Positions 1-45,628 of a stretch of DNA of 64,000 nt are shown here, piece after piece; positions within the stretch are counted from its first letter, which is position 1; each line of letters begins with the position of its first letter. The notes under the pieces are model-generated. The model saw nothing but the letters and a program-made list of their open reading frames with translations. It was not told where the DNA came from and made no database searches. Position numbers and translations under genes: made by a program. The stretch lies in the UHGV virus genome UHGV-1378516, one strand, 5' to 3'. Source of the stretch: a virus.

Positions 1-2413
1 CACCTGTTGTATTCGTTACACCAGACCAGTTTCTTGATGCGTTGAAGTTGACAGGGATACCTTTAGTAAAGTTGTTACCAGTATACCCTTTAGAACCTGC
101 CTGACTACCGAGGTAGAATGCACCACTTGCTGTGTAGAAGCCACTAGCGTCACTTCTGAAGTAACCAAATGAACCAGTAATCTCCATAGTACCTCTGTTG
201 TGGTTGTGGTTACCAGTTGTGCTAGAAGTCTTAGTACCATAGTCAAATGATGAAGTAGTAGCAGAGAAGCTGTGCGTGTGTGAAGGTAAGTTACCAACAG
301 ACAGCGTTACAGAGTCTGAACCACCAGTTGTAGCAACATCTGAACCGTTTGCTGCTGCAATTCTAATAGTTCTACCAACACCATTATTCAGGTACGTCCA
401 AGTTAACCCAGGAAGTGCTGTGTTTGGGTTGACATTACTGTTAAACCACGTCACAATACCTACTGGATAGATTTTATTCAGGTCTGTAGAGTCACTAATT
501 GCTTCTGCAATCTTCTGGTCAGTTTCTGCTTTAGTGTATGCACCAATATCTGAAGGGGTTGGTTTTTGCAAACTTGTGTAGTATTTTGCAATTGTACCCT
601 TCACAATACCTTGTGGAGCATCATCAAATGTCTGTGGGACTTCAAACAACTGTACACTTGCATTACTAGAAGACTGAACCCTTGTCGTTGTGCTGTTTTG
701 ATACGTACCAGCAAGATAGTAAATATCATAGGTGTCTCCAGAAGTATTCACATAACCAATATCCCTGACAATGGTGTTCTCTGATGTTCTCCAAGCAACA
801 ACATTTAAGCCCTTTGGATTGTTATTTGAAGTTCGCAGAACAATTTCACATTTACCTGCTTGGTTTGGTGTATTAATATTAAAACCTGACCCACCAAATA
901 CCTCAATAACAGCAGTGGATGCTGATTGTGGCATCACAACAGTGGCAATTTTAGCCCACTTATCAGTGTTTCCCACATTGAAGCTAGTGCTTCTGATTCT
1001 TAGGTATCTACTATCACTAGCACTTTGCGTAAAGTATCTAGCATCTAAGTTAGAGAAATCTGAAGGTTGAACTTGTCCAGCAATAGTCAATGTTTTGTTA
1101 ATGTATGATGTTGTATTCCCGAGAACCAATTGGGTTCCAGAATAACTGTTATTTAGGGTAACATCATTCGTATCAGCACCACCAACACCAATCCACCATC
1201 TTGATACATTAGCAGTGTCCACACCACGAATATATAATGGTCTATTCTGAGTAGAGTTTTTAACAATCAGACCTTCATTATCAGTAACAACTGTCTGTAC
1301 ACCATTAAAAGTATTCCTTGCATTAGTTCTTGCAATCGTACTTAATGTTGCTACCGGAATATATCTAGAGTCAATGTTAGCCCAATCTGAAGGTTGGACT
1401 TGTCCAGTGATTTGCACAGTTTTATTGATACCAATAGCAGTACCTAGTGAAATCTGTGAACCTGTAAGGTAGTTATAAATATTTAGACGTGTTTCGTCAG
1501 AATCTGTACCAACATACCATTTATTTGTTCCATCAGACTTCTTACCGAGAATGTAAAGTGCTGTACTTGCATCAGTATTCTGCAAAGTAATAGCATTAGC
1601 ATTCTTCTTAACAACAAGGTTAGTGAAAGTGTTAGCACCTGTAAAAGTGTTATTACCAGCTAACTGTGCAAATCTCTGATTAGCAACTGTCTGAGTGAAG
1701 TATCTAGCATCTAAGTTAGAGAAATCTGAAGGTTGAACTTGACCAGTGATTGCTAAAGACTTATTCACAGAGATGTTGCTTGCAATAGTCAAGGCTGAAT
1801 TGTATTTGTTATTATATAACTTCACTTCATCAGAGCCATTACTACCAATACCAACCCACCATCTAGCTGAACCATCTAGGTTTACACCTTCGATATATTG
1901 TGCATTATTTGCATTTTGGTTCCTAAGGCGAAGTAAGTTAGCATCACCTTGAATATTTTGAGTCCCAGAGAATGTGTTTGTGACAGCAAGTCTTGCATAT
2001 CTCGCATCATTCTCTTCATTAGTTCTCATACCAAGTTCATTAGGGCTTGGTTTATTCAAAGTATGATAAACAGTTGCTGACCTTGAAGCATCTGCAATAG
2101 TGAGTTTAAGACCATTTGAGTTAAGTTTAAAAGTCTTTAAAACATCCCCAATAGTAATTTCAGAAGAACCTGTAGGGTCAAATACAGCCTTGCCACCGTA
2201 AAGTAACTTGACAATACCTAAATCACCCGTCATAGTGCTACCAGCAATCTGAACAAACCTTTCTAGTTTGAAGGAAGCTAAGAAGTCTTGATAGGTCATT
2301 CTACGGTCTTCGTCACCCAACATTTCAGGTCTTTTCTTAACTCTGATGTGCAATAGGTCTTCTGAACGAATTGTGTCGATTGAGTTTAATTGACTCAATT
2401 TGTAATCTGCCAT
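1..2413 (-). CDS. tail fibre protein, 5' portion (gene continues past window start)
   Basis: Minus-strand frame open from ATG at 2413 (SD AAGAGGA upstream, in-frame stop at 2438-2440) to position 1; absent from ORF track because it has no in-window stop; hand translation shows internal repeats (..GQVQPSDFSNLDARYF..) and HTHS/NHNHN His motifs near the window start. Confidence 0.6.
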   Translation of the reverse strand, partial: MADYKLSQLNSIDTIRSEDLLHIRVKKRPEMLGDEDRRMTYQDFLASFKLERFVQIAGSTMTGDLGIVKLLYGGKAVFDPTGSSEITIGDVLKTFKLNSNGLKLTIADASRSATVYHTLNKPSPNELGMRTNEENDARYARLAVTNTFSGTQNIQGDANLLRLRNQNANNAQYIEGVNLDGSARWWVGIGSNGSDEVKLYNNKYNSALTIASNISVNKSLAITGQVQPSDFSNLDARYFTQTVANQRFAQLAGNNTFTGANTFTNLVVKKNANAITLQNTDASTALYILGKKSDGTNKWYVGTDSDETRLNIYNYLTGSQISLGTAIGINKTVQITGQVQPSDWANIDSRYIPVATLSTIARTNARNTFNGVQTVVTDNEGLIVKNSTQNRPLYIRGVDTANVSRWWIGVGGADTNDVTLNNSYSGTQLVLGNTTSYINKTLTIAGQVQPSDFSNLDARYFTQSASDSRYLRIRSTSFNVGNTDKWAKIATVVMPQSASTAVIEVFGGSGFNINTPNQAGKCEIVLRTSNNNPKGLNVVAWRTSENTIVRDIGYVNTSGDTYDIYYLAGTYQNSTTTRVQSSSNASVQLFEVPQTFDDAPQGIVKGTIAKYYTSLQKPTPSDIGAYTKAETDQKIAEAISDSTDLNKIYPVGIVTWFNSNVNPNTALPGLTWTYLNNGVGRTIRIAAANGSDVATTGGSDSVTLSVGNLPSHTHSFSATTSSFDYGTKTSSTTGNHNHNRGTMEITGSFGYFRSDASGFYTASGAFYLGSQAGSKGYTGNNFTKGIPVNFNASRNWSGVTNTTG

Positions 2414-2433
2414 TATGAATTTTCCTCTTAAAA

Positions 2434-2449
2434 GGGGCTATAAAGCCCC
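2434..2449 (-). terminator. weak hairpin terminator/attenuator between the two tail fibre genes
   Basis: GGGGC-tttata-GCCCC on minus strand followed by UUUU. Confidence 0.3.
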
Positions 2450-2459
2450 TGTAAAGAAA

Positions 2460-3635
2460 TTAAACTGTTCTCTGCCACACATATACTACAAAAGATGGCT
2501 GCTCAATACTGAAAGCTTGGCCACCACCAACAGAACCAGATGTTCCTGAGTGTGTATGCTCGGAGCTAGAAACAGTAACAGTACCTGTATGGCTGTGTGA
2601 ACCAATATTAACAGTATGACTATGAGCACCAATTGCAACAGTATGACTATGAGCACCAGATGATGCAGTTGTGCCTGAGAAGCTATGGGTGTGAGCACCA
2701 GCTAAATCAGTATACATAGCATTACCAACACCAGCATCAGCAGATGCAGTAATAGCATTTGTACCACCTCTATCATTACCCCTCATAGGTACTCTATGGT
2801 TGTGGTTACCAGCATTGCTTGTTGTGCCACTAAACGTGTGCGTGTGAGCACCAACACTGTTAGTTGTCTTCGTACCATAATCAAAAGTCGATGTACTTTT
2901 TGAACCATAATCAAAGCTAGAGATAGATACGCTTGCAGAGTGTGTATGACCACCACCTGTTAGATAGATAGAGTGAGTATGCGCTGGTAAATTATTATTT
3001 GTTAATGCTACAGTCTGAGAACCAAACATTGAACCAACAGGTCTAGAATCTGTATCATAACCAACTAGTGCTCTACCTTTAGAAACTAACTCCCAAGTAC
3101 CTCCACAAAGTAAGTAAGTGGATGGGTTAGCTGGATTCACAGATAGATGGATTGTCCCTACTGGATATGATGCTTGGATAGCTTTGTACAAGTTATTGAC
3201 TGCTTTTGCTGTAGCATATTTATCAGCATCTTCATTGTACAGATTGGATGTTGTCCAGTTCTGAACATTACTTAAACCGACCTGTGCTTTCGTTGTATTG
3301 TGTGGGTTACTTTTATCGTCAATATGTTTCTGAATTAAATTATTCACTTCCTCTGACGACATAATTTGTAGATTTGCTCTTGCCTCAGCAACACTTACAA
3401 CATCTGACAAGTTATTAGCTGCAACTAATTGAAGAGAGTTAATAACATTATCAAGACCTACTTGTGATTTAGTTACACCATGAGGGTTATTCCTCAAAGA
3501 TGCGTGAGGTGCTAACAACTGCTCAAGCGTACATCTTTTATCCTCAACACCTTGCTTAAGGTGGAAGATATCACTCAAATCAATTGGTAAGGCCGCTTGT
3601 GGCAAGGCACTAATTTGAATTTCACCTACTGCCAT
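2460..3635 (-). CDS. tail fibre protein with His-x-His repeat tip
   Basis: 391 aa; repeated AHTHS/GAHSHTV/NHNH motifs in C-terminal half; N-terminal ..KSQVGLDNV../..KAQVGLSNV.. motifs; last genes of structural operon. Confidence 0.65.
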   Translation of the reverse strand: MAVGEIQISALPQAALPIDLSDIFHLKQGVEDKRCTLEQLLAPHASLRNNPHGVTKSQVGLDNVINSLQLVAANNLSDVVSVAEARANLQIMSSEEVNNLIQKHIDDKSNPHNTTKAQVGLSNVQNWTTSNLYNEDADKYATAKAVNNLYKAIQASYPVGTIHLSVNPANPSTYLLCGGTWELVSKGRALVGYDTDSRPVGSMFGSQTVALTNNNLPAHTHSIYLTGGGHTHSASVSISSFDYGSKSTSTFDYGTKTTNSVGAHTHTFSGTTSNAGNHNHRVPMRGNDRGGTNAITASADAGVGNAMYTDLAGAHTHSFSGTTASSGAHSHTVAIGAHSHTVNIGSHSHTGTVTVSSSEHTHSGTSGSVGGGQAFSIEQPSFVVYVWQRTV

Positions 3636-3637
3636 TA

Positions 3638-3940
3638 TTAAGCTCCTACATATTCATATGTGTAAAGGTTTCTTGTACTTGTTGATGCAGTCCCTGTCTC
3701 AGACTTAATGAGGTTCCAGCCATTAGCCACTAAATCTGGTTGCTCAGTTGCATATGAGCGAACTTCACCAACAGTGCCGTTTACTTTATTCAGCAGGTAG
3801 TTGATAATATAGTTGAACCACTGTCTACCCATAGGCTCACCCTTTAAAAGACCTGTCTCTTGAACTTCCGGTGGTGGTAAAACTTTTAACTGATTACCAT
3901 CAGTATCTACTTCGTTTGTAGACCAATTTAGAACTGCCAT
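3638..3940 (-). CDS. hypothetical protein (tail fibre/baseplate associated by position)
   Basis: 100 aa ORF tightly packed between baseplate and fibre genes. Confidence 0.45.
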
Positions 3941-4794
3941 TAAGAATTTCCTTCTTGTTGTGATTTATCTTTTCTGCCTTTGACAATTTGTGCAACCTCA
4001 GCCATAACTCCGTATGCACCACCTGCAATAGCTTCTTTACCAACGATGAAATAACCACTCTTATTAGACCTATCTACAGTCATATAATCATCGCTCTGTA
4101 AGTTTGCTGTTCTGTCAACCTTAAAGTAACCATCAATAACACCAGCATCTGCAAGGCTACCTACTAAGTTGGACTCCAGAGAGCCACCAGTGTTATTTGT
4201 TACCAGACCTCTGTTAGCATCAGTTACAAACCAGTTCTCTTTATCATCAACAATAGCAAGTGATGAATCAGCAACCTCTACAGGTGTCCAAGCGGTCCCA
4301 TTTAAAGTAACATCTCTTAAGATAACAGCGGAACCAGTGGTTGTTGCAGAAATCTTTGACAGTGTATATGCAGCATCAAGAACGCTTTTTCTAGTATTAA
4401 TACGGATAACGATACCACCAGTCTTAGGAGTAATATGCTCAAAAATCTGAGAGAAAGTTGCACCATACAATGTCATAATTGCTTTTTGCAAGAATGTTGG
4501 AGTAGTGTCAGAACGTCTTAAGAAGATTTGGATATAAAGCATAGCTCTATATGTTTCATCATCAGCACCTAAAGGTCTAGGAACTTTAATCAGTGAGCCA
4601 ATATTATCAAGTTGTTGACCTACTGACGTCCTAATATTTCTCTCTGTGTGCATCTGCCAGCAAACATCTTCTAAGGTTTGTAACTCATCAGTGATTGCTT
4701 TCAAGATGCTTGTATAGATAAACTTATCTTTAAACTGTGTTACAGTCCTTTCATCAAGTGTTTTATAATAAACACTATCAATCTTTTCAAACAT
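3940..4794 (-). CDS. putative baseplate protein (gpI/gp48-like by position)
   Basis: 284 aa, directly downstream of baseplate J-like gene; assignment by synteny only. Confidence 0.4.
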
Positions 4795-22927: not shown

Positions 22928-23128
22928 TTATTCAGAGTCTGTAGCAGTCTCTTCTTTCTTAACTTCGAACTTTGCATCAACAGCATCAAGAAGTGCATCC
23001 ATAGATGCTTCTTTAATATCAATACCTGTTGCTACAGACAATCTGTCTGCAATTGCCATGATAGTATTCTGCATAAATTCTAGCTTTTTATTAGCTTCAT
23101 AAAGTTCTTTATAAACGGTCTCGCTCAT
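22928..23128 (-). CDS. hypothetical small protein upstream of terminase
   Basis: 66 aa, ATG with SD GGAGAA; first gene after tandem terminators. Confidence 0.4.
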   Translation of the reverse strand: MSETVYKELYEANKKLEFMQNTIMAIADRLSVATGIDIKEASMDALLDAVDAKFEVKKEETATDSE

Positions 23129-39290: not shown

Positions 39291-40876
39291 ATAAAATTTT
39301 ATCGGTTGTTCCAACCTCTGGGTCACCATCATATGTGAATAAAATATCTATCCTTCTTAACAACCTTCTTAATCTTACTCTCTATATAGTTATATAGTAC
39401 TATATAGTATCTTAGTAACTATCTAGTGGTCTTAATAGCCCTCTGTATAACCCTTCTAAATAGCCCTCTAAACACTCTTCTAACAAGCCTTCTTAACAAC
39501 CTATACAATCACCTTAACCATCTCTCTATACCCTCTTAGAAGCCCCTATACACCTCTTAATCTCTAGGTTAGCTATGATACCCTCTATAGGTGTTCACTA
39601 GGTATTACTAAGCCTCTATATAGACTGTTTTAACAAACTTAACAGGAATATCTTCACAGACCTTATCTCACAAGGTCTAACACGGTACTAACAAGGTATC
39701 TTATAAGCCTGTTTCTACCTGTATTTTTAAAAGACTGTCTAGGTAATTATTCAGATTTTTAAAATTTTTATAAAATAGGACTATCAAGTCATTTTTTAGG
39801 GTCTTTGAAGGAACTCAAAAATATCTGTAGGAGATGTATATCTGCTTGGTAGCCCTTAACAGCTCCCTTACAAGTACTTTGCAAAATTTTAAAATATCCT
39901 TAACAATCTCTTAACAGTTCTCACATCTTCTTAACAACTCTTCAAAGGTCTTAACAGTTTCTTAACAGAACTAACAAGGGCTTAACAGTTTTCTAACAAG
40001 TGCTGAATAGGTTTTACAGAATCTTAACAGATGACTAACAAGAGCTAACAAGTTAATTTTAAAGAGTTATTTTGTTAGGGATTGGTAACAATACCAATTA
40101 GATAACTAACAAGTTCCTAATAAGTGTTTAATCTTTTTAACAAGCTATTAACATGGTCACTATCTCTTTTCTTATCGTTCCCTTTCTCTCTTAGTGATTC
40201 TCTAAACATACCTTTTAAAAACTCTCTATAGCTCCTTGTAAGCTCTTTTAAATCTCTTCCTAGTATCTACCCATCAACTGTATGGATAGCTCTTTATAGG
40301 GCTTTACAGGAGCTTTTAAGGCTATGTCAAAGACTCTTACAAGGCTTTTACGTGGTCTTAACAGAGATTTAACAAGGGGCTAACAAGTCTCTAACAAGAA
40401 TAACTATGTAGGGATTGTTAAGAAATTGTTAAGAAAATGTTAAGGGGGCTAGCATTTACGTAACTTTATAGCCTTTTTTACGTTACTTTGAAGTAACTTT
40501 ATAGCCCCTATAACATGCTTTTTAGTGACTATCAAGGGGATTGTTTAGTTATTCACAAGATACTAGCCAGCCTATAAACTTTCACCCTTATAAGATTCTT
40601 TTAAGGCTCTGGGAAGCTCTATAAAGGGCTTTTTAGAGTGGGTTAATATGATTGCTTAAGTTAGGTTGATAAGGCTGTTATAGAGCTTTATAGAGCGTTT
40701 TAGTGGTTGCCCTTCCCTTTCGGATTATGGGCTTGTATTTAAGTTGATTTGATAAAAGGTTATAGAGTAGACTATAGAGTTATTGCTTTTAAGGTATGGG
40801 ATAGATTCTATCGAATTAGTGGGATAGATTCTGGGAAGGAAAGGAAAGGGTTTTAATAGAGGCTATTACATAGACG
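39291..40876. repeat. ORF-free repeat-dense region (candidate origin/iteron or regulatory hub)
   Basis: No ORF of 60 aa or more on either strand; over 30 copies of YTAACAR heptamers with orientation flip near 40400; CTCTATA/TATATAG family; short direct repeats. Confidence 0.6.
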
Positions 40877-41282: not shown

Positions 41283-41520
41283 GCCTTTTTTCGTTGTATT
41301 TTGTAAGAATCTCACAAGATAAAACATCGAACTTTGTAACCGCGTTGCCTTTGTCGAGGTCAAAAAAGCCAAACGCTTTACCATCTTTGAATCCGACAAC
41401 TTCGTAAGACTCTTTGATGATTTCATCATTGAACAAATCGCTTTCGATACGGTGGAATAATGCTACATCTTCTTTGTCGGTTGCAATTTGTAAAAGTGTG
41501 GTTAATTCTACGTTTTCCAT
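41257..41520 (-). CDS. hypothetical small protein (cassette-driven)
   Basis: 87 aa; ATG directly after cassette. Confidence 0.55.
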   Translation of the reverse strand: MENVELTTLLQIATDKEDVALFHRIESDLFNDEIIKESYEVVGFKDGKAFGFFDLDKGNAVTKFDVLSCEILTKYNEKRLATYANMQ

Positions 41521-41612
41521 CTTGATAACTCCAGTTTAGGACTTTATTTAGTGGGGAAGGTCATTCCCTCCCCGTTGATTGACAATTTACAGACTTTTGA
41601 TTGTTTCGTCAA
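41521..41612 (-). promoter_or_regulatory. type-1 promoter/5' stem-loop cassette, copy 2
   Basis: TTGACG-17-TAAATT; stem GGGGAGGG-aatga-CCTTCCCC (G-U wobble only in minus-sense RNA); SD; ATG 41520. Confidence 0.65.
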
Positions 41613-42117
41613 TATCTTTTTCAATATCTTTTAAAGTTTTTTCTAAGTTCTTGATATTGAAAGATAAACCTTCACCGAGAGTCTTAGAGTAACCGCTAGG
41701 ACGTAAATCATAAAGGCTAATTTGTTCTACATTAGAGAGGCTGACCATTTCACCGCTTACATCATAAGCTATTGATACAGTATTTTCAGGGGCTTTATAG
41801 AACTTGTTTAGTGACTTGATAGAACGTTCATAAGCCATTTTATAACCGTTTAAAAGGTTTTTAACATGGTTGTAAACGTTTTTACACTCATCCAAGTAAA
41901 TCCCTAAGAATAGCGGTAATAATTCTGCTACAGCTTGCATAAAGTGAGAGACTACAACGGTTGCAGCATTACGACGATGAACGTAATAAGCTCCGTTTTC
42001 TGATTTAGTGATGGTTGCAAAGTGTACCCCATTGCAGCGAAATTCGTAGGTATCTTTGACAGGCTTTGACATTACAGCACTTGAGCGGATGTAATTGATG
42101 GCTTTGAACTTGTTCAT
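41587..42117 (-). CDS. hypothetical protein (cassette-driven)
   Basis: Track ORF 41587..42210 trimmed to ATG at 42117 downstream of cassette SD. Confidence 0.55.
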   Translation of the reverse strand: MNKFKAINYIRSSAVMSKPVKDTYEFRCNGVHFATITKSENGAYYVHRRNAATVVVSHFMQAVAELLPLFLGIYLDECKNVYNHVKNLLNGYKMAYERSIKSLNKFYKAPENTVSIAYDVSGEMVSLSNVEQISLYDLRPSGYSKTLGEGLSFNIKNLEKTLKDIEKDIDETIKSL

Positions 42118-42210
42118 TTTAGAGTCTCCTAGTTTAAGGATTTTGTTTAGTGGGAAGGTCATTCCCTCCCCGTTGATTAGTAATTTACTTGCTTTGATAG
42201 CTGATTGCAA
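42118..42210 (-). promoter_or_regulatory. type-1 promoter/5' stem-loop cassette, copy 3
   Basis: TTGCAA-17-TAAATT; same stem-loop and SD; ATG 42117. Confidence 0.65.
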
Positions 42211-42338
42211 GCAATTTTTTAAGCTTATCTATAAAGAATCTTTTAAGTGAATCCTTTTAGATAAACCCCCTCGAACAAAGTTACCAATGTCAAGGGGTAT
42301 TGTCAACACTTTTTTAAAAGTTTTTTGTAAGTTATTGA

Positions 42339-42680: not shown

Positions 42681-42775
42681 TTTTAGAATCTCCTAGTTTA
42701 AGGACTTTATTTAGTGGGGAAGGTCATTCCCTCCCCGTTGATGTGTAATTTAATCTATCTAAAAAACAGTGTCAA
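42681..42775 (-). promoter_or_regulatory. type-1 promoter/5' stem-loop cassette, copy 4
   Basis: TTGACA-17-TAAATT; same stem-loop and SD; ATG 42680. Confidence 0.65.
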
Positions 42776-42784
42776 CAAAATTTT

Positions 42785-43189
42785 TTAGAGTTCTGCATAA
42801 ATTGCGTCGCAGATGTCACGAAAGTCATGATTTGCCAAATTACGTTGTAACCAAGTGGCAAAGAAATCAGCGATTGCAAAATTTGCGTCATACTCGACAG
42901 ATAGCCACACTTTAACAGCAAATCTAAACATTTTCAAGTCTAACTCTTTATTCATTACCTTAGATTTGCCTAACATGTCGGCCATTTCATATTGTGCGCC
43001 ATCTAGTGTGATACCTGCTGCAACGTCAGCCAATGAACTTTTTACGTTTTCAACGTCTAAGATAACGCTTTGAATCTTTCCGATAATGTTGTGCAATGTT
43101 TCATCAGGCGCTGATGATGTCAGAACATTAATCCGGTTGACGGTCAAACGTGCTTTTAAGATTGATAATTCACGGTTATTAATGGTCAT
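42785..43189 (-). CDS. hypothetical protein (operator-cassette-driven)
   Basis: 134 aa. Confidence 0.55.
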   Translation of the reverse strand: MTINNRELSILKARLTVNRINVLTSSAPDETLHNIIGKIQSVILDVENVKSSLADVAAGITLDGAQYEMADMLGKSKVMNKELDLKMFRFAVKVWLSVEYDANFAIADFFATWLQRNLANHDFRDICDAIYAEL

Positions 43190-43277
43190 TTTAGAATCTC
43201 CAATTTAGGATTGAGTGGTAAAGCTCTTTATCTGGGGCTATCTTATCAGCTTGATAACCCCCTGTAAAGTACTTTAC
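43190..43277 (-). promoter_or_regulatory. type-2 cassette with palindromic operators, copy 1
   Basis: Perfect palindrome GTAAAGTACTTTAC overlapping -35-like TTTACA; second half-site pair TAAAG-ctc-TTTA downstream; SD; ATG 43189. Confidence 0.6.
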
Positions 43278-43546
43278 ACTAAATGCAGTTTTTTACCTTT
43301 TACTATAATGTAACTCGATGCACTATTGCTTTGCACATCCTGATAAATTCTGCGCAAACGGCCTTCGTAGTGTACTTTCCAACTGGTTGGAATCTTTTTA
43401 CCGTATCCCGTAGCAGTTTTTTGGAGTCCTGCGACTTGCCAATCTAAGATATGTTGTTCAGCTTGTAAGTCTTCAAAGTGCATGACACCATCTACATAGT
43501 GACGTAGTGTGACATTTAAAGTGCGACCGTTGTTAGTAGTATACAT
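43274..43546 (-). CDS. hypothetical protein (cassette-driven)
   Basis: 90 aa. Confidence 0.5.
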   Translation of the reverse strand: MYTTNNGRTLNVTLRHYVDGVMHFEDLQAEQHILDWQVAGLQKTATGYGKKIPTSWKVHYEGRLRRIYQDVQSNSASSYIIVKGKKLHLV

Positions 43547-43640
43547 TTTAGAATCTCCTAGTTTAAGGATTTTATTTAGTGGGGAAGGTCATTCCCTCCC
43601 CGTTGATGTGTAATTTAATCTATCTAAAAAACAGTGTCAA
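43547..43640 (-). promoter_or_regulatory. type-1 promoter/5' stem-loop cassette, copy 5
   Basis: Near-identical to copy 4; ATG 43546. Confidence 0.65.
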
Positions 43641-43969
43641 CAGTTTTGTTTTCGTTTGCTCAATTCTTGAACAATTACAGCGTAGTAGTCTTTTAAGTCA
43701 CTGATATTTAAAGCATTTATTAGTGAATTATAATCATCGATTAACTGAAAATCATCTTTGAAAATGTCGCTAATCTGATACGTTCTCGCTTTAAATCTGA
43801 AGCTCATTTCTAACCGCTTTATTTGCTCATCACTGAGACGCCCTAGAAAGCTTTCTACAAGGTTATTGCTAACCTGCTGTGTGATTGCCTTATTTGCTAG
43901 ATTATAGGCTTTATATGCCTTATATAGCGCGAAAATGGCAATGATTGCAGTGATACCAGTCATTAACAT
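43637..43969 (-). CDS. hypothetical membrane-anchored protein
   Basis: 110 aa; N-terminal hydrophobic segment. Confidence 0.5.
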   Translation of the reverse strand: MLMTGITAIIAIFALYKAYKAYNLANKAITQQVSNNLVESFLGRLSDEQIKRLEMSFRFKARTYQISDIFKDDFQLIDDYNSLINALNISDLKDYYAVIVQELSKRKQNC

Positions 43970-44259
43970 GGTGTTTCCTCTTTACGTGATACTTTGCCAT
44001 TTACAGTTATCTCATAGGATTCTAATAAATCGCTTTTAGACTTTACAGGGCTTTTAAAAGTATCATCATAGATATTGACTTGCAATACAGGTTTTTTATA
44101 TTCCCTGCAACTATTCCATAAGCAAATCACTACACGACGGCCTTTGATTTTTCCGTGCAACCATTCCATAACATCATGCCTATTCCTTGATGTTTCAATG
44201 AAATCAATTTTATTAAGTAACTTGCTTAGATTTTCACGGACTTTATTTGATAGTTTCAT
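43963..44259 (-). CDS. hypothetical protein (operator-cassette-driven)
   Basis: 98 aa. Confidence 0.5.
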   Translation of the reverse strand: MKLSNKVRENLSKLLNKIDFIETSRNRHDVMEWLHGKIKGRRVVICLWNSCREYKKPVLQVNIYDDTFKSPVKSKSDLLESYEITVNGKVSRKEETPC

Positions 44260-44348
44260 TTTAGAATCTCCAGTTTAGGATTTAGTTGTAAAGCTCTTTA
44301 TCTGGGGCTTAAGATATCAACTTTTAAACCCCCTGTAAAGTACTTTAT
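44260..44348 (-). promoter_or_regulatory. type-2 cassette with palindromic operators, copy 2
   Basis: GTAAAGTACTTTA palindrome plus TAAAGCTCTTTA element; ATG 44259. Confidence 0.6.
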
Positions 44349-44638
44349 TTGTTAATTTTCAGCTTTGCATAACCTCTCATTGTACGAATTGGAGATGTTA
44401 AGGCTACGCGTCTAATATATGCCTTTTTCGTGTATACATTTGTCTTCCCGATAGTGTTTACACATGTAAAAAGATTTATTGGTGAATTTTTTAACTTCAA
44501 CTGTTTATCAGCCTTCACACCCCATCTTACAGCAGATTGTTTTCCGTTGTCAACCACTTTCCCGCCTAACTTTTTCGCCATGATGCGAGCGTCATCGCGA
44601 GTTTTTGCAGTAATTACAACGTTTTTAATAATAGCCAT
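44345..44638 (-). CDS. hypothetical basic protein (operator-cassette-driven)
   Basis: Track ORF begins with TTG at 44653 inside cassette; trimmed to ATG at 44638 after SD GGAGAA. Confidence 0.5.
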   Translation of the reverse strand: MAIIKNVVITAKTRDDARIMAKKLGGKVVDNGKQSAVRWGVKADKQLKLKNSPINLFTCVNTIGKTNVYTKKAYIRRVALTSPIRTMRGYAKLKINK

Positions 44639-44728
44639 TTTTAAGTTCTCCAATTTAGGATTTAGTGGTAAAGCTCTTTATCTGGGGCTTACTTTATCGA
44701 ACTATAAGCCCCCTGTAAAGTACTTTAT
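44639..44728 (-). promoter_or_regulatory. type-2 cassette with palindromic operators, copy 3
   Basis: Same architecture; ATG 44638. Confidence 0.6.
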
Positions 44729-45105
44729 TTAATTTTGAAGATTGTTACATAACCATCACTCCCGATGATTTGTGATACTCCAGCCTTTTCTACTTGATAG
44801 CCCATATTTTCAAGATGATAAATAGCATCATCATAACCATATGCGCCACCCTGATAACGTCTCTTATCACATCTTATCAGGTTTTTTCCACGTCCAGCAA
44901 GTGCATGGAGAATGGTTTTTTCACTTGAAAGAGTGCCATCTAACATGGTTGCCGTGTAATGGTTGATTTTATTCCCGTTGATATCATACTTGAAATTGAA
45001 CGAGTGAACAACAATCACATTACCTTTGAAATTTTCATCAAGTGACTTCTCCAGTACGCTACGAAAGTTGTCTTTGTTGATGAATTTAGGCGCACGATAT
45101 TTCAT
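44725..45105 (-). CDS. hypothetical protein (first gene of cassette cluster)
   Basis: 126 aa. Confidence 0.55.
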   Translation of the reverse strand: MKYRAPKFINKDNFRSVLEKSLDENFKGNVIVVHSFNFKYDINGNKINHYTATMLDGTLSSEKTILHALAGRGKNLIRCDKRRYQGGAYGYDDAIYHLENMGYQVEKAGVSQIIGSDGYVTIFKIK

Positions 45106-45200
45106 TTTCTGAATCTCCTAGTTTAAGGACTTTATTTAGTGTGGAAGGTCATTCCCTCCCCGTTGATGCAAATACTAGATAACCACGTTCAAAGAGTCAA
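45106..45200 (-). promoter_or_regulatory. type-1 promoter/5' stem-loop cassette, copy 6
   Basis: TTGACT-17-TAGTAT; same stem-loop and SD; ATG 45105. Confidence 0.65.
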
Positions 45201-45319
45201 GAAAAATTTTAAAAATATTTTTGACAAAACTGTAATGAAACGGGCGCACACGACTACCACAAAACAGAACACAAATCAAGAATTATTTTTCAATCCGCTA
45301 CAAATTTTTCCCTTGACTT

Positions 45320-45352
45320 TTGGGGAGAGGGGGAGTAAGAGGGGGAGAGGGG
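45320..45352 (+). other. G-run tract with G-quadruplex potential
   Basis: GGGGAGAGGGGGAGTAAGAGGGGGAGAGGGG: four runs of four or more G in an AT-rich genome. Confidence 0.45.
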
Positions 45353-45379
45353 TTGGTCTGGCTCTCTATAAAAACCTAC

Positions 45380-45556
45380 CTGCACGATTCTAAAATGATT
45401 TTTCTTGCCCGACCTGAGCGGGGTCTGCACGTTTTGAAAATGAAAAATCTCTTTGGAGATTACCTGCACAGTTTGAAAATGAATTTCCTCTTTGGAGTTC
45501 AAAATTTCCTCTACAGATTTCTCTATAGAAATATACCTGCACAATTCTGAAATGAA
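45380..45556. repeat. four direct repeats of a 20-bp motif
   Basis: CTGCAC(G/A)NTT(C/T)T(A/G)AAAATGA at about 45380, 45425, 45464, 45537. Confidence 0.6.
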
Positions 45557-45628
45557 AAAGCCCTCCTTACCTGAAAAATTTACCAGATAAGAAAGGCTTA
45601 GTCTATTGTGAATATCCTACGAAGTTTC

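What the first reader, a model, noticed from the sequence alone, without database searches (positions are those of the whole stretch)
43190..44728. Three cassettes carry tandem palindromic operator-like sites over the promoter
The type-2 element (43190-43277, 44260-44348, 44639-44728) contains the perfect palindrome GTAAAGTACTTTAC overlapping a -35-like TTTACA, and a second site with the same half-sites (TAAAG-ctc-TTTA) about 35 bp downstream near the predicted start. Two operators with shared half-sites bracketing a promoter is the classic repressor-controlled layout; three genes (42785..43189, 43963..44259, 44345..44638) would form a regulon. No regulator is identifiable by eye.
Basis: seen in the sequence. 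Interest (0 to 1): 0.7.

Follow-up and report, generated by a model that had tools for sequence, protein, structure and literature searches.

The report
Promoter-plus-hairpin cassette boundaries in a phage
The three repeats are copies of a boundary element, conserved across Felix O1-like phages, that places a host-type early promoter inside a conserved RNA hairpin. The two "operator" palindromes are best read as the two arms of that hairpin's lower stem, which makes this a new example of a known kind of phage regulatory cassette, not a repressor regulon.

Summary
Three ~92-bp repeats lie on the minus (gene) strand directly upstream of three small genes. Each carries TAAAGTACTTTA over a TTTACA -35 box and TAAAGAGCTTTA 46-47 bp downstream.

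The window is a Felixounavirus (Felix O1/wV8-like). The element occurs 3-10 times per genome in 288 phage records across Ounavirinae.

In 164 unique copies:
- CTTTACA is invariant.
- TAnnnT follows at 17-18 bp in 163, so a sigma-70 promoter is well supported.
- The promoter lies inside a 20-bp interrupted hairpin that folds in all 138 copies tested.
- The 9-bp upper stem covaries (GGGG/CCCC becomes GGTG/CACC; five pair types at position 9).
- G·U-type cells outnumber A·C-type 239 to 7, which points to sense-strand RNA.

The two 12-mers form the lower stem. Where they vary, both dyads break but the inter-site pairing is kept.

The flanked genes are ORFans, and cassette content differs between relatives with breakpoints inside the elements. 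This anatomy matches the PeSL (promoter-early stem-loop) elements of T4-type phages.

A repressor-operator reading is not excluded, but nothing supports it: no regulator was found, the dyads are not conserved, and the phasing is poor. It is a new member of a known kind, of moderate interest.

The parts
43187..43282 (-). Type-2 element, copy A: from the stop codon of the upstream gene 43274..43546 to the ATG of gene 42785..43189
43265..43276 (-). Copy A site 1, TAAAGTACTTTA: 5' arm of the lower stem. It contains the upstream stop codon TAA (43274-43276) and overlaps the -35 box
43263..43268 (-). Copy A -35-like hexamer TTTACA
43240..43245 (-). Copy A -10-like hexamer TAAGAT (17-bp spacer, TGn just upstream)
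43234..43261 (-). Copy A upper stem-loop: GGGGTTATC, 10-nt loop, GATAGCCCC
43219..43230 (-). Copy A site 2, TAAAGAGCTTTA: 3' arm of the lower stem. If the promoter fires at the A or G of CCCC-AGA (43233/43232), it spans about +3/+4 to +14/+15
   Evidence: the start site is inferred
44257..44353 (-). Type-2 element, copy B: from the stop of gene 44345..44638 to the ATG of gene 43963..44259. Site 1 44336-44347; -35 44334-44339; -10 TATCTT 44311-44316; upper stem 44304-44332; site 2 44289-44300; GGAG 44268-44271
44636..44733 (-). Type-2 element, copy C: from the stop of gene 44725..45105 to the ATG of gene 44345..44638. Site 1 44716-44727; -35 44714-44719; -10 TAAAGT 44691-44696; upper stem 44684-44712; site 2 44669-44680; GGAG 44648-44651
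42785..43189 (-). Cassette gene (134 aa): ORFan with no Pfam domain, PHROG 4327 of unknown function
43963..44259 (-). Cassette gene (98 aa): ORFan, PHROG 4401. It is followed by the overlapping gene 43637..43969
44345..44638 (-). Cassette gene (97 aa): ORFan, PHROG 5089
42681..42786 (-). Sister 'type-1' element: TTGACA-17-TAAATT promoter, then the hairpin GGGGAGGGAATGACCTTCCCC in the 5' leader, then a related GGAG leader. One of five copies (also 41518-41623, 42116-42221, 43546-43651, 45106-45211). It alternates with type-2 elements and recombines with them

Best explanation
Each type-2 element is a composite boundary of an early-gene cassette, of the PeSL (promoter-early stem-loop) kind.

DNA level: it is a host sigma-70 promoter. 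An A-rich stretch holds the upstream stop codon, followed by -35 CTTTACA, a 17-18 bp spacer, often TGn, and TAnnnT. The inferred start is at the A or G of CCCC-AGA. This promoter drives the ORFan gene downstream immediately after infection.

RNA level: no terminator separates the cassettes, so transcripts arriving from the upstream cassette must contain the whole element. In them it folds into a 20-bp interrupted hairpin:
- a 9-bp GC-clamped upper stem that spans the promoter spacer and the -10 box;
- a 3x3 internal loop (CAN/AGA);
- a lower stem of 5 + 6 bp made by the two 'operator' 12-mers (CUUUA:UAAAG and UAAAGU:GCUUUA).

I take the hairpin to insulate cassettes at the RNA level. The most likely mode is an RNase III-type processing and 3'-end-stabilising site, which would leave a downstream mRNA with nearly the same 5' end as the promoter-initiated one. 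Termination is less likely because no U-tract follows the stem.

Evolutionary level: the ~90-bp conserved element supplies homology for recombination that adds, deletes, duplicates and reorders ORFan cassettes.

Shown here: the conservation pattern of the promoter, covariation and strand asymmetry of the hairpin, and cassette breakpoints inside elements. Inferred: promoter activity, the start site, and which RNA-level activity the hairpin has.
For: Identity and spread:
- The window is a Felixounavirus.
- The element is found in 288 phage records at 1493 places: Felixounavirus, Mooglevirus and Kolesnikvirus.

Promoter:
- CTTTACA is invariant in 139 of 139 copies.
- TAnnnT lies at 17 bp (154 copies) or 18 bp (9 copies) in 163 of 164. 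At any other spacing it occurs 0-5 times. Fifteen different hexamers are used, and TGn is present in 82.
- In loci that were not selected through that pattern, the figure is 40 of 40.
- In Felix O1, ORF16 and ORF20 sit directly behind the element and are maximally expressed 5 min after infection (PMC3185647).

Hairpin:
- All three window copies fold the same way, with dG -19.5 to -25.4 kcal/mol and z -4.4 to -6.1.
- RNAalifold finds the same consensus structure.
- All 138 unique copies fold the upper stem; 137 fold the middle stem and 132 the outer stem.
- Upper-stem positions 1-9 are paired in at least 130 of 138 copies, against 24 and 45 for positions 10 and 11. Pair types: GC/UA at position 3, CG/UG at 5, UA/AU at 7, AU/UA at 8, and five types at 9.
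- On alignment A1, 97.3% of cells are paired against 95.0% in shuffles (0 of 500 shuffles reach it). There are 17 double-change cells against 3.7 expected (0 of 500).
- There are 239 G·U-type cells against 7 A·C-type cells, so the structure exists only on the gene-sense strand.

Cassette behaviour:
- The flanked genes have no Pfam domain and fall in PHROGs of unknown function.
- The window has g10-[T1]-g13 where wV8 has g10-[T1]-g24-[T2]-g11-g18-g46-[T2]-g13, and the junction lies inside the shared leader.
- Michonne has a duplicated cassette and an empty element. Mordin has two elements fused at CTTTAC.
- Chimeras of a type-2 promoter with a type-1 leader exist.

Precedent:
- PeSLs have the same parts in the same order. 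The stem-loop often has a G-tract followed by a C-tract and most often lies between -35 and -10 or over the -10 box.
- Promoter and attenuator activity were shown with lacZ fusions (PMC2839356).
- The T4/PST PeSL promoter consensus is TTTACW-N17-TAYWAT (PMC4122927).
Against: - No transcription start site, processing or termination data exist for any Felix O1-like phage in the searchable literature. Every functional step is therefore inferred.
- The lower-stem covariation rests on about two independent lineages (the TAAATTG/ATAGATTT families and the Erwinia-phage AAAAAG...CTTTT family). Some copies are uncompensated (3 G/A, 3 T/C). The shuffle control does not correct for relatedness.
- A simple hairpin does not need each arm to be a palindrome in itself. 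That extra symmetry is only loosely explained, by the -35 box on one side and the A-rich/stop region on the other.
- No U-tract follows the stem and the terminator scan finds nothing there, so the terminator function documented for PeSLs may not carry over.
- RNase III cleavage is proposed from architecture alone.
- The copies were collected with a model and a pattern derived from the element, which inflates the apparent conservation.
Confidence: 0.6

Rival explanations
1. Operator model. The two TAAAG-NN-CTTTA dyads are duplex-DNA binding sites for a dimeric repressor, phage- or host-encoded. The repressor occludes the -35 box and the start site and switches off all cassette promoters together.
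For: - Both 12-mers are dyad-symmetric with the same 5+2+5 layout, and they bracket the promoter.
- Site 2 (AGATAAAGAGCTTTAC) is nearly invariant from E. coli phages to Erwinia phages. The AAAG of site 1 is also highly conserved.
- Self-palindromic arms are not required by a hairpin.
- How early transcription is shut off in Felix O1 is stated to be unknown.
Against: - Within each site there is no compensation. When a half-site changes, the dyad simply breaks (10 and 11 of 69 sequences at the G:C position). In 6 of those the change is mirrored in the other site, so that inter-site pairing is kept.
- In the ATAGATTT family, site 1 loses 2 of its 5 left-half bases, yet every change stays compatible with RNA pairing, including A-to-G giving G·U.
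- The start-to-start distance is 46-47 bp, about 4.4 helical turns, which is out of phase for cooperative binding.
- No DNA-binding domain was found in 58 window ORFs. Seven weaker families were not displayed, and about 24 kb of the genome lies outside the window.
- The right half of site 1 is the -35 box itself, so its conservation needs no operator.
Confidence: 0.12
2. RNA-only element. There is no internal promoter. The cassettes are transcribed from the strong type-1 (TTGACA) promoters upstream, and the element is purely an intercistronic processing or stability hairpin. The TTTACA and TAnnnT matches would then come from stem and loop constraints.
For: - CTTTA is also one strand of the middle stem, so its invariance has a second possible cause.
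- The last 2-3 bases of the -10-like hexamer belong to the 3' arm of the stem.
- The window copies match the consensus hexamers only 9 of 12.
Against: - TA at the start of the hexamer lies in the otherwise variable loop, is invariant, and stays exactly 17-18 bp from CTTTACA in 163 of 164 copies although loop length varies from 5 to 21 nt.
- TGn is present in half the copies.
- C and A of TTTACA are unpaired in the fold yet invariant.
- In Mordin and Michonne, long runs of cassettes carry only type-2 elements.
- The T4/PST early-promoter consensus is the same, TTTACW-N17-TAYWAT.
Confidence: 0.08
3. Promoter plus recombination homology only. The stem-loop has no RNA function. It would be a DNA-level feature (a single-strand hairpin used in recombination or replication, in the manner of an integron attC site) or a passenger kept by gene conversion among copies.
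For: - Cassette gain, loss and duplication occur with breakpoints inside elements.
- PeSL mini-circles and an explicit comparison with integrons appear in Arbiol 2010.
- G·T is the best-tolerated mismatch in single-stranded DNA as well, so strand asymmetry alone does not prove RNA.
Against: - A passenger sequence would not show a sharply bounded 9-bp stem with four covarying positions across three genera.
- No integrase or other site-specific recombinase was seen in the scanned ORFs.
- The element always has the same orientation and the same distance to a start codon. That fits an expression signal.
Confidence: 0.1

Closest known systems
PeSL (promoter-early stem-loop) elements of T4-type phages (Arbiol et al. 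2010, PMC2839356; Comeau et al. 2014, PMC4122927)
   Same: - Same parts in the same order: upstream stop codon in an AT-rich stretch, a sigma-70-type -35/-10 promoter (TTTACW-N17-TAYWAT in T4/PST), and a stem-loop with a G-tract and a C-tract lying between -35 and -10 or over the -10 box.
- Shine-Dalgarno sequence and ATG at the 3' end.
- Many copies clustered in a variable early region between ORFans.
- Indels, duplications and degraded or tandem copies at the elements between close relatives.
   Different: - The host lineage is Ounavirinae, not T4-type, and no sequence homology to PeSLs was shown.
- This hairpin is extended by a conserved lower stem formed by two near-palindromic 12-mers.
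- The hairpin has no U-tract.
- Promoter activity, attenuator activity and mini-circles are untested here.
- Structural covariation, shown here, was not part of the PeSL description.
Classical repressor-operator promoters (lambda OR/OL, lac O1-type occlusion); established knowledge
   Same: Dyad-symmetric sites overlap the -35 box and the start site of a sigma-70 promoter.
   Different: - The dyads are not maintained when they vary.
- The two sites are complementary to each other and covary.
- No cognate regulator was found.
- The sites lie about 4.4 helical turns apart.
- There are 3-10 copies per genome in front of unrelated ORFans.
RNase III processing sites of the phage T7 early region (R0.3-R1.3); established knowledge, recalled and not tested
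   Same: - An intercistronic hairpin of about 20 bp, with an upper stem, an internal loop and a lower stem, between early genes transcribed by host RNA polymerase.
- It lies 25-45 nt upstream of the next ribosome-binding site.
   Different: - No cleavage data exist.
- The internal loop here is symmetric (3x3).
- A promoter is embedded in the same sequence, which T7 sites lack.
Start-associated sequences (SAS/ESAS) of cluster K mycobacteriophages, the comparison made for the 26-bp leader repeat in the Mordin genome announcement (PMC4611695)
   Same: - A conserved sequence lies immediately upstream of many start codons.
- ESAS are inverted repeats with a variable spacer further upstream (recalled from memory).
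   Different: - Different hosts and different sequences.
- The function of SAS is itself unknown.
- The Mordin note covered only the leader, not the promoter or the hairpin.
Intrinsic (Rho-independent) terminators
   Same: A GC-clamped stem-loop directly after a stop codon. The wV8 record labels one copy as a terminator, on the opposite strand.
   Different: - No U-tract follows the stem; the sequence is AGAUAAAG.
- The scan finds no terminator at any copy.
- On the opposite strand the G·U pairs become A·C mismatches.

Membership tests
PeSL-type composite promoter/stem-loop cassette element | Sigma-70-like -35 and -10 boxes at about 17 bp | tested here: met
   TTTACA-17/18-TAnnnT in 163 of 164 unique copies, in 40 of 40 copies from unbiased loci, and in all 3 window copies. 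This is sequence evidence only.
PeSL-type composite promoter/stem-loop cassette element | AT-rich stretch upstream of -35 that holds the stop codon of the upstream gene | tested here: met
   The stop TAA lies inside site 1 in all three window copies. The region upstream is A/T-rich in 139 copies.
PeSL-type composite promoter/stem-loop cassette element | Stable stem-loop, often a G-tract followed by a C-tract, between -35 and -10 or overlapping -10 | tested here: met
   A 9-bp GGGG.../...CCCC stem starts 2 nt after the -35 box and overlaps the last 2-3 bases of the -10 box.
PeSL-type composite promoter/stem-loop cassette element | Shine-Dalgarno sequence and start codon at the 3' end | tested here: met
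   GGAG, then 8-9 nt, then ATG in all window copies, and the same in relatives.
PeSL-type composite promoter/stem-loop cassette element | Clustered in a variable region between ORFans, with indels and exchanges between close relatives at the elements | tested here: met
   No Pfam domains and PHROGs of unknown function. Cassette maps and the window/wV8 junction.
PeSL-type composite promoter/stem-loop cassette element | Demonstrated promoter and attenuator/terminator activity; mini-circle formation | not testable with these tools
   This needs reporter fusions and inverse PCR as in PMC2839356. The only indirect support is early (5 min) expression of Felix O1 ORF16 and ORF20.
PeSL-type composite promoter/stem-loop cassette element | Resident in a T4-type phage genome (as originally defined) | tested here: not met
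   The window and all relatives are Ounavirinae. It is therefore an analogue in another subfamily, not a member by descent.
Repressor operator pair | Dyad-symmetric sites overlapping the core promoter | tested here: met
   TAAAG-NN-CTTTA occurs twice per element, over the -35 box and at about +3 to +15.
Repressor operator pair | Dyad symmetry maintained in evolution | tested here: not met
   Within-site pairs equal the shuffled expectation and show no compensation. Variant half-sites are instead mirrored in the other site.
Repressor operator pair | A cognate DNA-binding regulator | tested here: inconclusive
   No helix-turn-helix or other DNA-binding Pfam family among 58 window ORFs. ORFans, 7 undisplayed families, the rest of the genome and host factors were not excluded.
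RNase III processing site (T7 early type) | Hairpin of about two helical turns of dsRNA with an internal loop, in an intercistronic position | tested here: met
   9 + 5 + 6 bp with a 3x3 loop and an A·A mismatch, between a stop codon and the next ribosome-binding site.
RNase III processing site (T7 early type) | Cleavage by RNase III | not testable with these tools
   No RNA-end data exist for these phages.
Intrinsic terminator | U-tract immediately after a GC-rich stem | tested here: not met
   The stem is followed by AGAUAAAGAG, and no terminator-like site is reported at the elements.
Any curated RNA family (Rfam 15) | Match to a covariance model | tested here: not met
   No match at the elements, even at E up to 1.

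The most novel reading that the evidence does not exclude
The element could carry three overlapping codes in about 60 bp. Besides the promoter and the RNA hairpin, the two TAAAG-NN-CTTTA dyads would be bound as duplex DNA by an as-yet unrecognised small phage (ORFan) or host protein. That protein would shut off every cassette promoter at the early-to-middle switch. This would be the missing temporal regulator of Felix O1-like phages. It would also explain why each stem arm is a palindrome in itself, which the hairpin model does not require.
Probability: 0.1. Interest if true: 0.6.

Novelty: new member of a known kind. Interest (0 to 1): 0.38.

Why it matters
Felix O1-like phages are widely used for Salmonella and E. 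coli typing, biocontrol and therapy. Yet how they time and organise early transcription is stated to be unknown (PMC3185647). Their genome papers list these sequences only as 'direct repeats' or as a 'start-associated-like' repeat.

Reading them as promoter-in-hairpin cassette boundaries has several consequences:
- It supplies a candidate early-promoter set for the whole subfamily, with TTTACA-17-TAnnnT start sites that can be tested.
- It predicts where the polycistronic early RNA is cut or insulated.
- It explains why the ORFan block differs between otherwise near-identical phages.
- It extends the PeSL idea beyond T4-type phages, which suggests that large virulent myoviruses arrive at this design repeatedly.
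- For phage engineering, the elements are natural insertion and exchange points for payload genes.

Tried and rejected
- Rfam scan of 38-50 kb at E up to 1: nothing at the elements.
- Terminator scan: none at the elements on either strand. The 'Rho-independent terminator' label on the opposite strand in the wV8 record is rejected. No gene runs that way, no U-tract follows, and the G·U pairs become A·C mismatches on that strand.
- The seventh TAAAG-NN-CTTTA, at 23100, is an isolated match with no hairpin.
- The pattern hit in a 223-kb IMG/VR contig (L054) is a chance match.
- Literature searches for start-site or transcriptome data on Felix O1-like phages found none. One broad search was uninformative. 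The wV8 paper does not discuss the repeats.
- Resemblances recalled from memory were rejected on geometry. The TyrR box TGTAAA-N6-TTTACA needs N6, whereas here the spacing is N4 and only copy 1 has TGTAAA. A T4 MotA box (TGCTTtA) occurs in the GTGCTTTAC variants but lies 19 bp from the -10 box instead of 11-13 bp, and these phages are reported to lack T4-type RNA polymerase modifiers.
- A miniature transposon with terminal inverted repeats was considered. It is rejected because there are no target-site duplications, and the orientation and distance to start codons are fixed.
- A DNA cruciform in the promoter spacer was considered. It is unlikely given the 10-11-nt loop and the strand-asymmetric G·T pairs.
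- The search for a regulator found no DNA-binding Pfam family in 10 cassette ORFs or in 48 other window ORFs.
Full report
**1. What is there.**
The window is a Felix O1/wV8-like myophage (Felixounavirus). A 3-kb query around the finding matches 254 phage records at 80-96% identity. All genes between 40.9 and 64 kb lie on the minus strand, so the elements must be read on that strand.

The three 'type-2' repeats are at 43189-43280, 44259-44350 and 44639-44730. Read 5' to 3' on the gene strand, each has the following layout:
- TAAAGTACTTTA (site 1), which contains the TAA stop codon of the upstream gene.
- CA, then G.
- A 9-bp arm that starts with GGGG.
- A 10-11-nt loop.
- The complementary arm, ending in CCCC.
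- AGA.
- TAAAGAGCTTTA (site 2).
- About 20 nt, then GGAG, then 8-9 nt, then ATG.

TAAAG-NN-CTTTA occurs 7 times in 64 kb against 0.18 expected. Six of those are in the three elements. The seventh, at 23100, is an isolated chance match.

The perfect 14-mer is present only in copy 1. The shared perfect palindrome is the 12-mer. The sites start 46-47 bp apart.

**2. Distribution.**
A 98-nt query finds the element in 288 phage records at 1493 places. These include E. coli, Salmonella, Shigella and Citrobacter phages and, with the 5' two-thirds conserved, Erwinia and Hafnia phages of the genus Kolesnikvirus.

I collected 57 loci. A profile search then extracted 164 unique copies.

Earlier papers saw parts of the element without assigning a function:
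- The Felix O1 paper lists a 57-bp direct repeat that is this element.
- The wV8 record annotates it as DR_7, DR_9 and DR_1.
- The Mordin announcement calls the leader part 'reminiscent of start-associated sequences'.

**3. The promoter is well supported.**
- CTTTACA is invariant in 139 of 139 copies.
- TAnnnT lies 17 bp (154 copies) or 18 bp (9 copies) downstream in 163 of 164. At every other spacing it occurs 0-5 times.
- Fifteen different hexamers are used, all of the form TAnnnT. Half the copies carry TGn just upstream.
- In loci that were not selected through that pattern, the figure is 40 of 40.
- The TA of the hexamer sits in the otherwise variable loop.
- The C and A of TTTACA are unpaired in the fold yet invariant. 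The hairpin therefore cannot explain these signals.

The inferred start is the A or G of CCCC-AGA, which puts site 2 at about +3 to +15.

In Felix O1, ORF16 and ORF20, both directly behind the repeat, are maximally expressed 5 min after infection. The T4/PST PeSL promoter consensus is the same, TTTACW-N17-TAYWAT.

**4. The promoter lies inside a conserved hairpin.**
As RNA, all three window copies fold into the same structure:
- Six pairs, UAAAGU:GCUUUA.
- An A·A mismatch.
- Five pairs, CUUUA:UAAAG.
- A 3x3 internal loop, CAG/AGA.
- A 9-bp upper stem.

Free energies are -19.5 to -25.4 kcal/mol and z-scores are -4.4 to -6.1. RNAalifold predicts the same consensus on 69 diverse copies. All 138 unique copies fold the upper stem in their minimum-energy structure, 137 fold the middle stem and 132 the outer stem.

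The upper stem is sharply bounded. Positions 1-9 pair in at least 130 of 138 copies, whereas positions 10 and 11 pair in only 24 and 45. It also covaries:
- Position 3: G-C becomes U-A in the Erwinia phages (GGGG/CCCC to GGTG/CACC).
- Position 5: C-G or U·G.
- Position 7: U-A or A-U.
- Position 8: A-U or U-A.
- Position 9: five pair types.

On alignment A1 the whole structure is 97.3% paired against 95.0% in shuffles (0 of 500 shuffles reach it). It has 17 double-change cells against 3.7 expected (0 of 500), and it collapses when one arm is slid by a single column.

G·U-type cells number 239 against 7 A·C-type cells. The structure therefore exists only on the gene-sense strand, which points to sense RNA. 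A single-stranded DNA form of that strand cannot be excluded. No Rfam family matches.

**5. What the two 'operators' are.**
They are the two arms of the lower stem. The discriminating cases are the copies in which a half-site differs from TAAAG/CTTTA.

Within each site nothing compensates. The dyad breaks in 10 and 11 of 69 sequences at the G:C position, and the counts equal the shuffled expectation.

Between the sites, the changes are mirrored:
- Site 1 G-to-T goes with site 2 C-to-A in 13 of 16 cases. Only 3 of 119 G copies carry the A.
- In the Erwinia phages, site 1 T-to-A goes with site 2 A-to-T.
- In the ATAGATTT family, site 1 loses two of its five left-half bases. Every change stays pairing-compatible, including A-to-G giving G·U and A-to-U closing the former A·A mismatch.

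The limits are real, however:
- Only about two independent lineages carry these changes.
- Some copies are uncompensated.
- The shuffle control ignores relatedness.
- A hairpin does not explain why each arm is a palindrome in itself. My explanation is partial. The 5' arm must hold the -35 box (CTTTAC) and an A-rich stretch with the stop codon. The 3' arm must complement both.

**6. Cassette behaviour.**
The ten genes flanked by type-1 and type-2 elements have no Pfam domain and fall in PHROGs of unknown function. Gene-order maps differ between relatives exactly at the elements:
- The window has g10-[T1]-g13 where wV8 has g10-[T1]-g24-[T2]-g11-g18-g46-[T2]-g13. The junction lies in the leader shared by the two element types.
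- Michonne has a duplicated cassette and an element whose ATG runs directly into the next CTTTACA.
- Mordin has two elements fused at CTTTAC.
- One gene family sits at a different place in Erwinia phages than in coli phages.
- Chimeras of a type-2 promoter with a type-1 leader exist.

**7. Comparison with known systems.**
The anatomy matches the PeSL elements of T4-type phages point by point:
- The upstream stop codon lies in an AT-rich stretch.
- A sigma-70 promoter follows.
- The stem-loop has a G-tract and a C-tract. [quoted passage not shown]
- A Shine-Dalgarno sequence and ATG lie at the 3' end.
- The elements are clustered between ORFans in hyperplastic regions.
- Recombination between elements shuffles the cassettes.
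- Promoter and attenuator activity were shown by lacZ fusions.

The differences are these:
- The lineage is Ounavirinae, not T4-type.
- A conserved lower stem is added.
- There is no U-tract, so termination is doubtful.
- None of the activities is tested here.

The 9 + 5 + 6 bp duplex with an internal loop, placed between cistrons, resembles the RNase III sites of the T7 early region. That comparison rests on my own knowledge and was not tested.

**8. Mechanism I commit to (confidence about 0.6 overall).**
- The element is a host-RNA-polymerase early promoter (about 0.8).
- It is embedded in a selected sense-RNA hairpin (about 0.8).
- The two 12-mers are primarily stem arms plus the -35 box and A-rich region, not operators (about 0.65).
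- The hairpin acts on read-through transcripts as a cassette insulator. The most likely mode is RNase III-type processing and 3'-end stabilisation (about 0.35). Next comes attenuation (about 0.25). The remaining probability goes to some other RNA function.
- The conserved element also serves as a recombination substrate for cassette turnover. This is shown comparatively.

The operator model keeps about 0.12. No DNA-binding regulator was recognised among 58 window ORFs, and the sites lie about 4.4 helical turns apart. An unrecognised ORFan protein or a host protein cannot be ruled out.

**9. Verdict.**
The feature is real and strongly conserved. The promoter reading is right. The operator and regulon reading is probably wrong. 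It is a new member, in a different phage subfamily, of the known PeSL kind of composite promoter/stem-loop cassette element, and it comes with unusually clear structural covariation.

Interest is moderate. The design would not surprise a specialist. It does provide a testable map of early promoters and RNA boundaries for a phage group whose transcription programme is undescribed.

Noticed in passing
window 39357-40432: About 28 YTAACAR heptamers (CTTAACAG/CTAACAAG) are packed into 1.1 kb of non-coding DNA beside the cassette block. Nearly all are on the plus strand, and many are 10-11 bp apart (tandem-repeat periods of 11 and 31). This looks like a phased protein-binding or iteron array, possibly an origin (D5/D6, 61, 62).
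   Followed up: partly
window 41518-41623, 42116-42221, 42681-42786, 43546-43651, 45106-45211: A second repeat family ('type-1') has a near-consensus TTGACA-17-TAAATT promoter. It is followed, in the transcribed leader, by the hairpin GGGGAGGGAATGACCTTCCCC and a GGAG leader related to that of type-2. It alternates with type-2 elements and forms chimeras with them in relatives.
   Followed up: partly
window 45290-45600: Three copies of a 34-39-nt unit (CTGCACnnTTTGAAAATGAA...CTCTTTGGAG) and a 36-nt pair lie between the macro-domain gene and the first cassette. Next to them is a 17-bp terminator-like hairpin at 45599..45558, which equals Felix O1 terminator t13. Their function is unknown (D7/D10, 9, 11).
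   Followed up: no
L002 (Mordin) 3412-3960; L003 (Panisse) 1-101: Relatives annotate a T4 RegB-like endoribonuclease next to rIIB and polynucleotide kinase. All coli-, Salmonella- and Citrobacter-phage cassette leaders use GGAG as the Shine-Dalgarno sequence, which is the motif T4 RegB cuts. The Erwinia-phage leaders use AAGGAA/AGAGGAA instead.
   Followed up: no
L002 8635-8786; L005 7349-7523: Footprints of cassette loss or slippage. In Mordin, two type-2 elements lie in tandem, joined at CTTTAC, with no ORF between them. In Michonne, an element's ATG is fused directly to the CTTTACA of the next element, and the g7 cassette is duplicated.
   Followed up: partly
window 42681-43189 compared with L001 (wV8) 1445-3512: Relative to wV8, the window lacks four ORFan genes (g24, g11, g18, g46) and two type-2 elements. 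The deletion junction lies inside the conserved leader.
   Followed up: yes
L007 9458-9548: One degenerate type-2 copy in Shigella phage vB_SflM_004 (CTCTACA, a GTGG..loop..ACCC stem, AACAAAGAGCTTTAC) keeps site 2 and the leader but has a decayed -35 box and stem. It may be a dying element.
   Followed up: no
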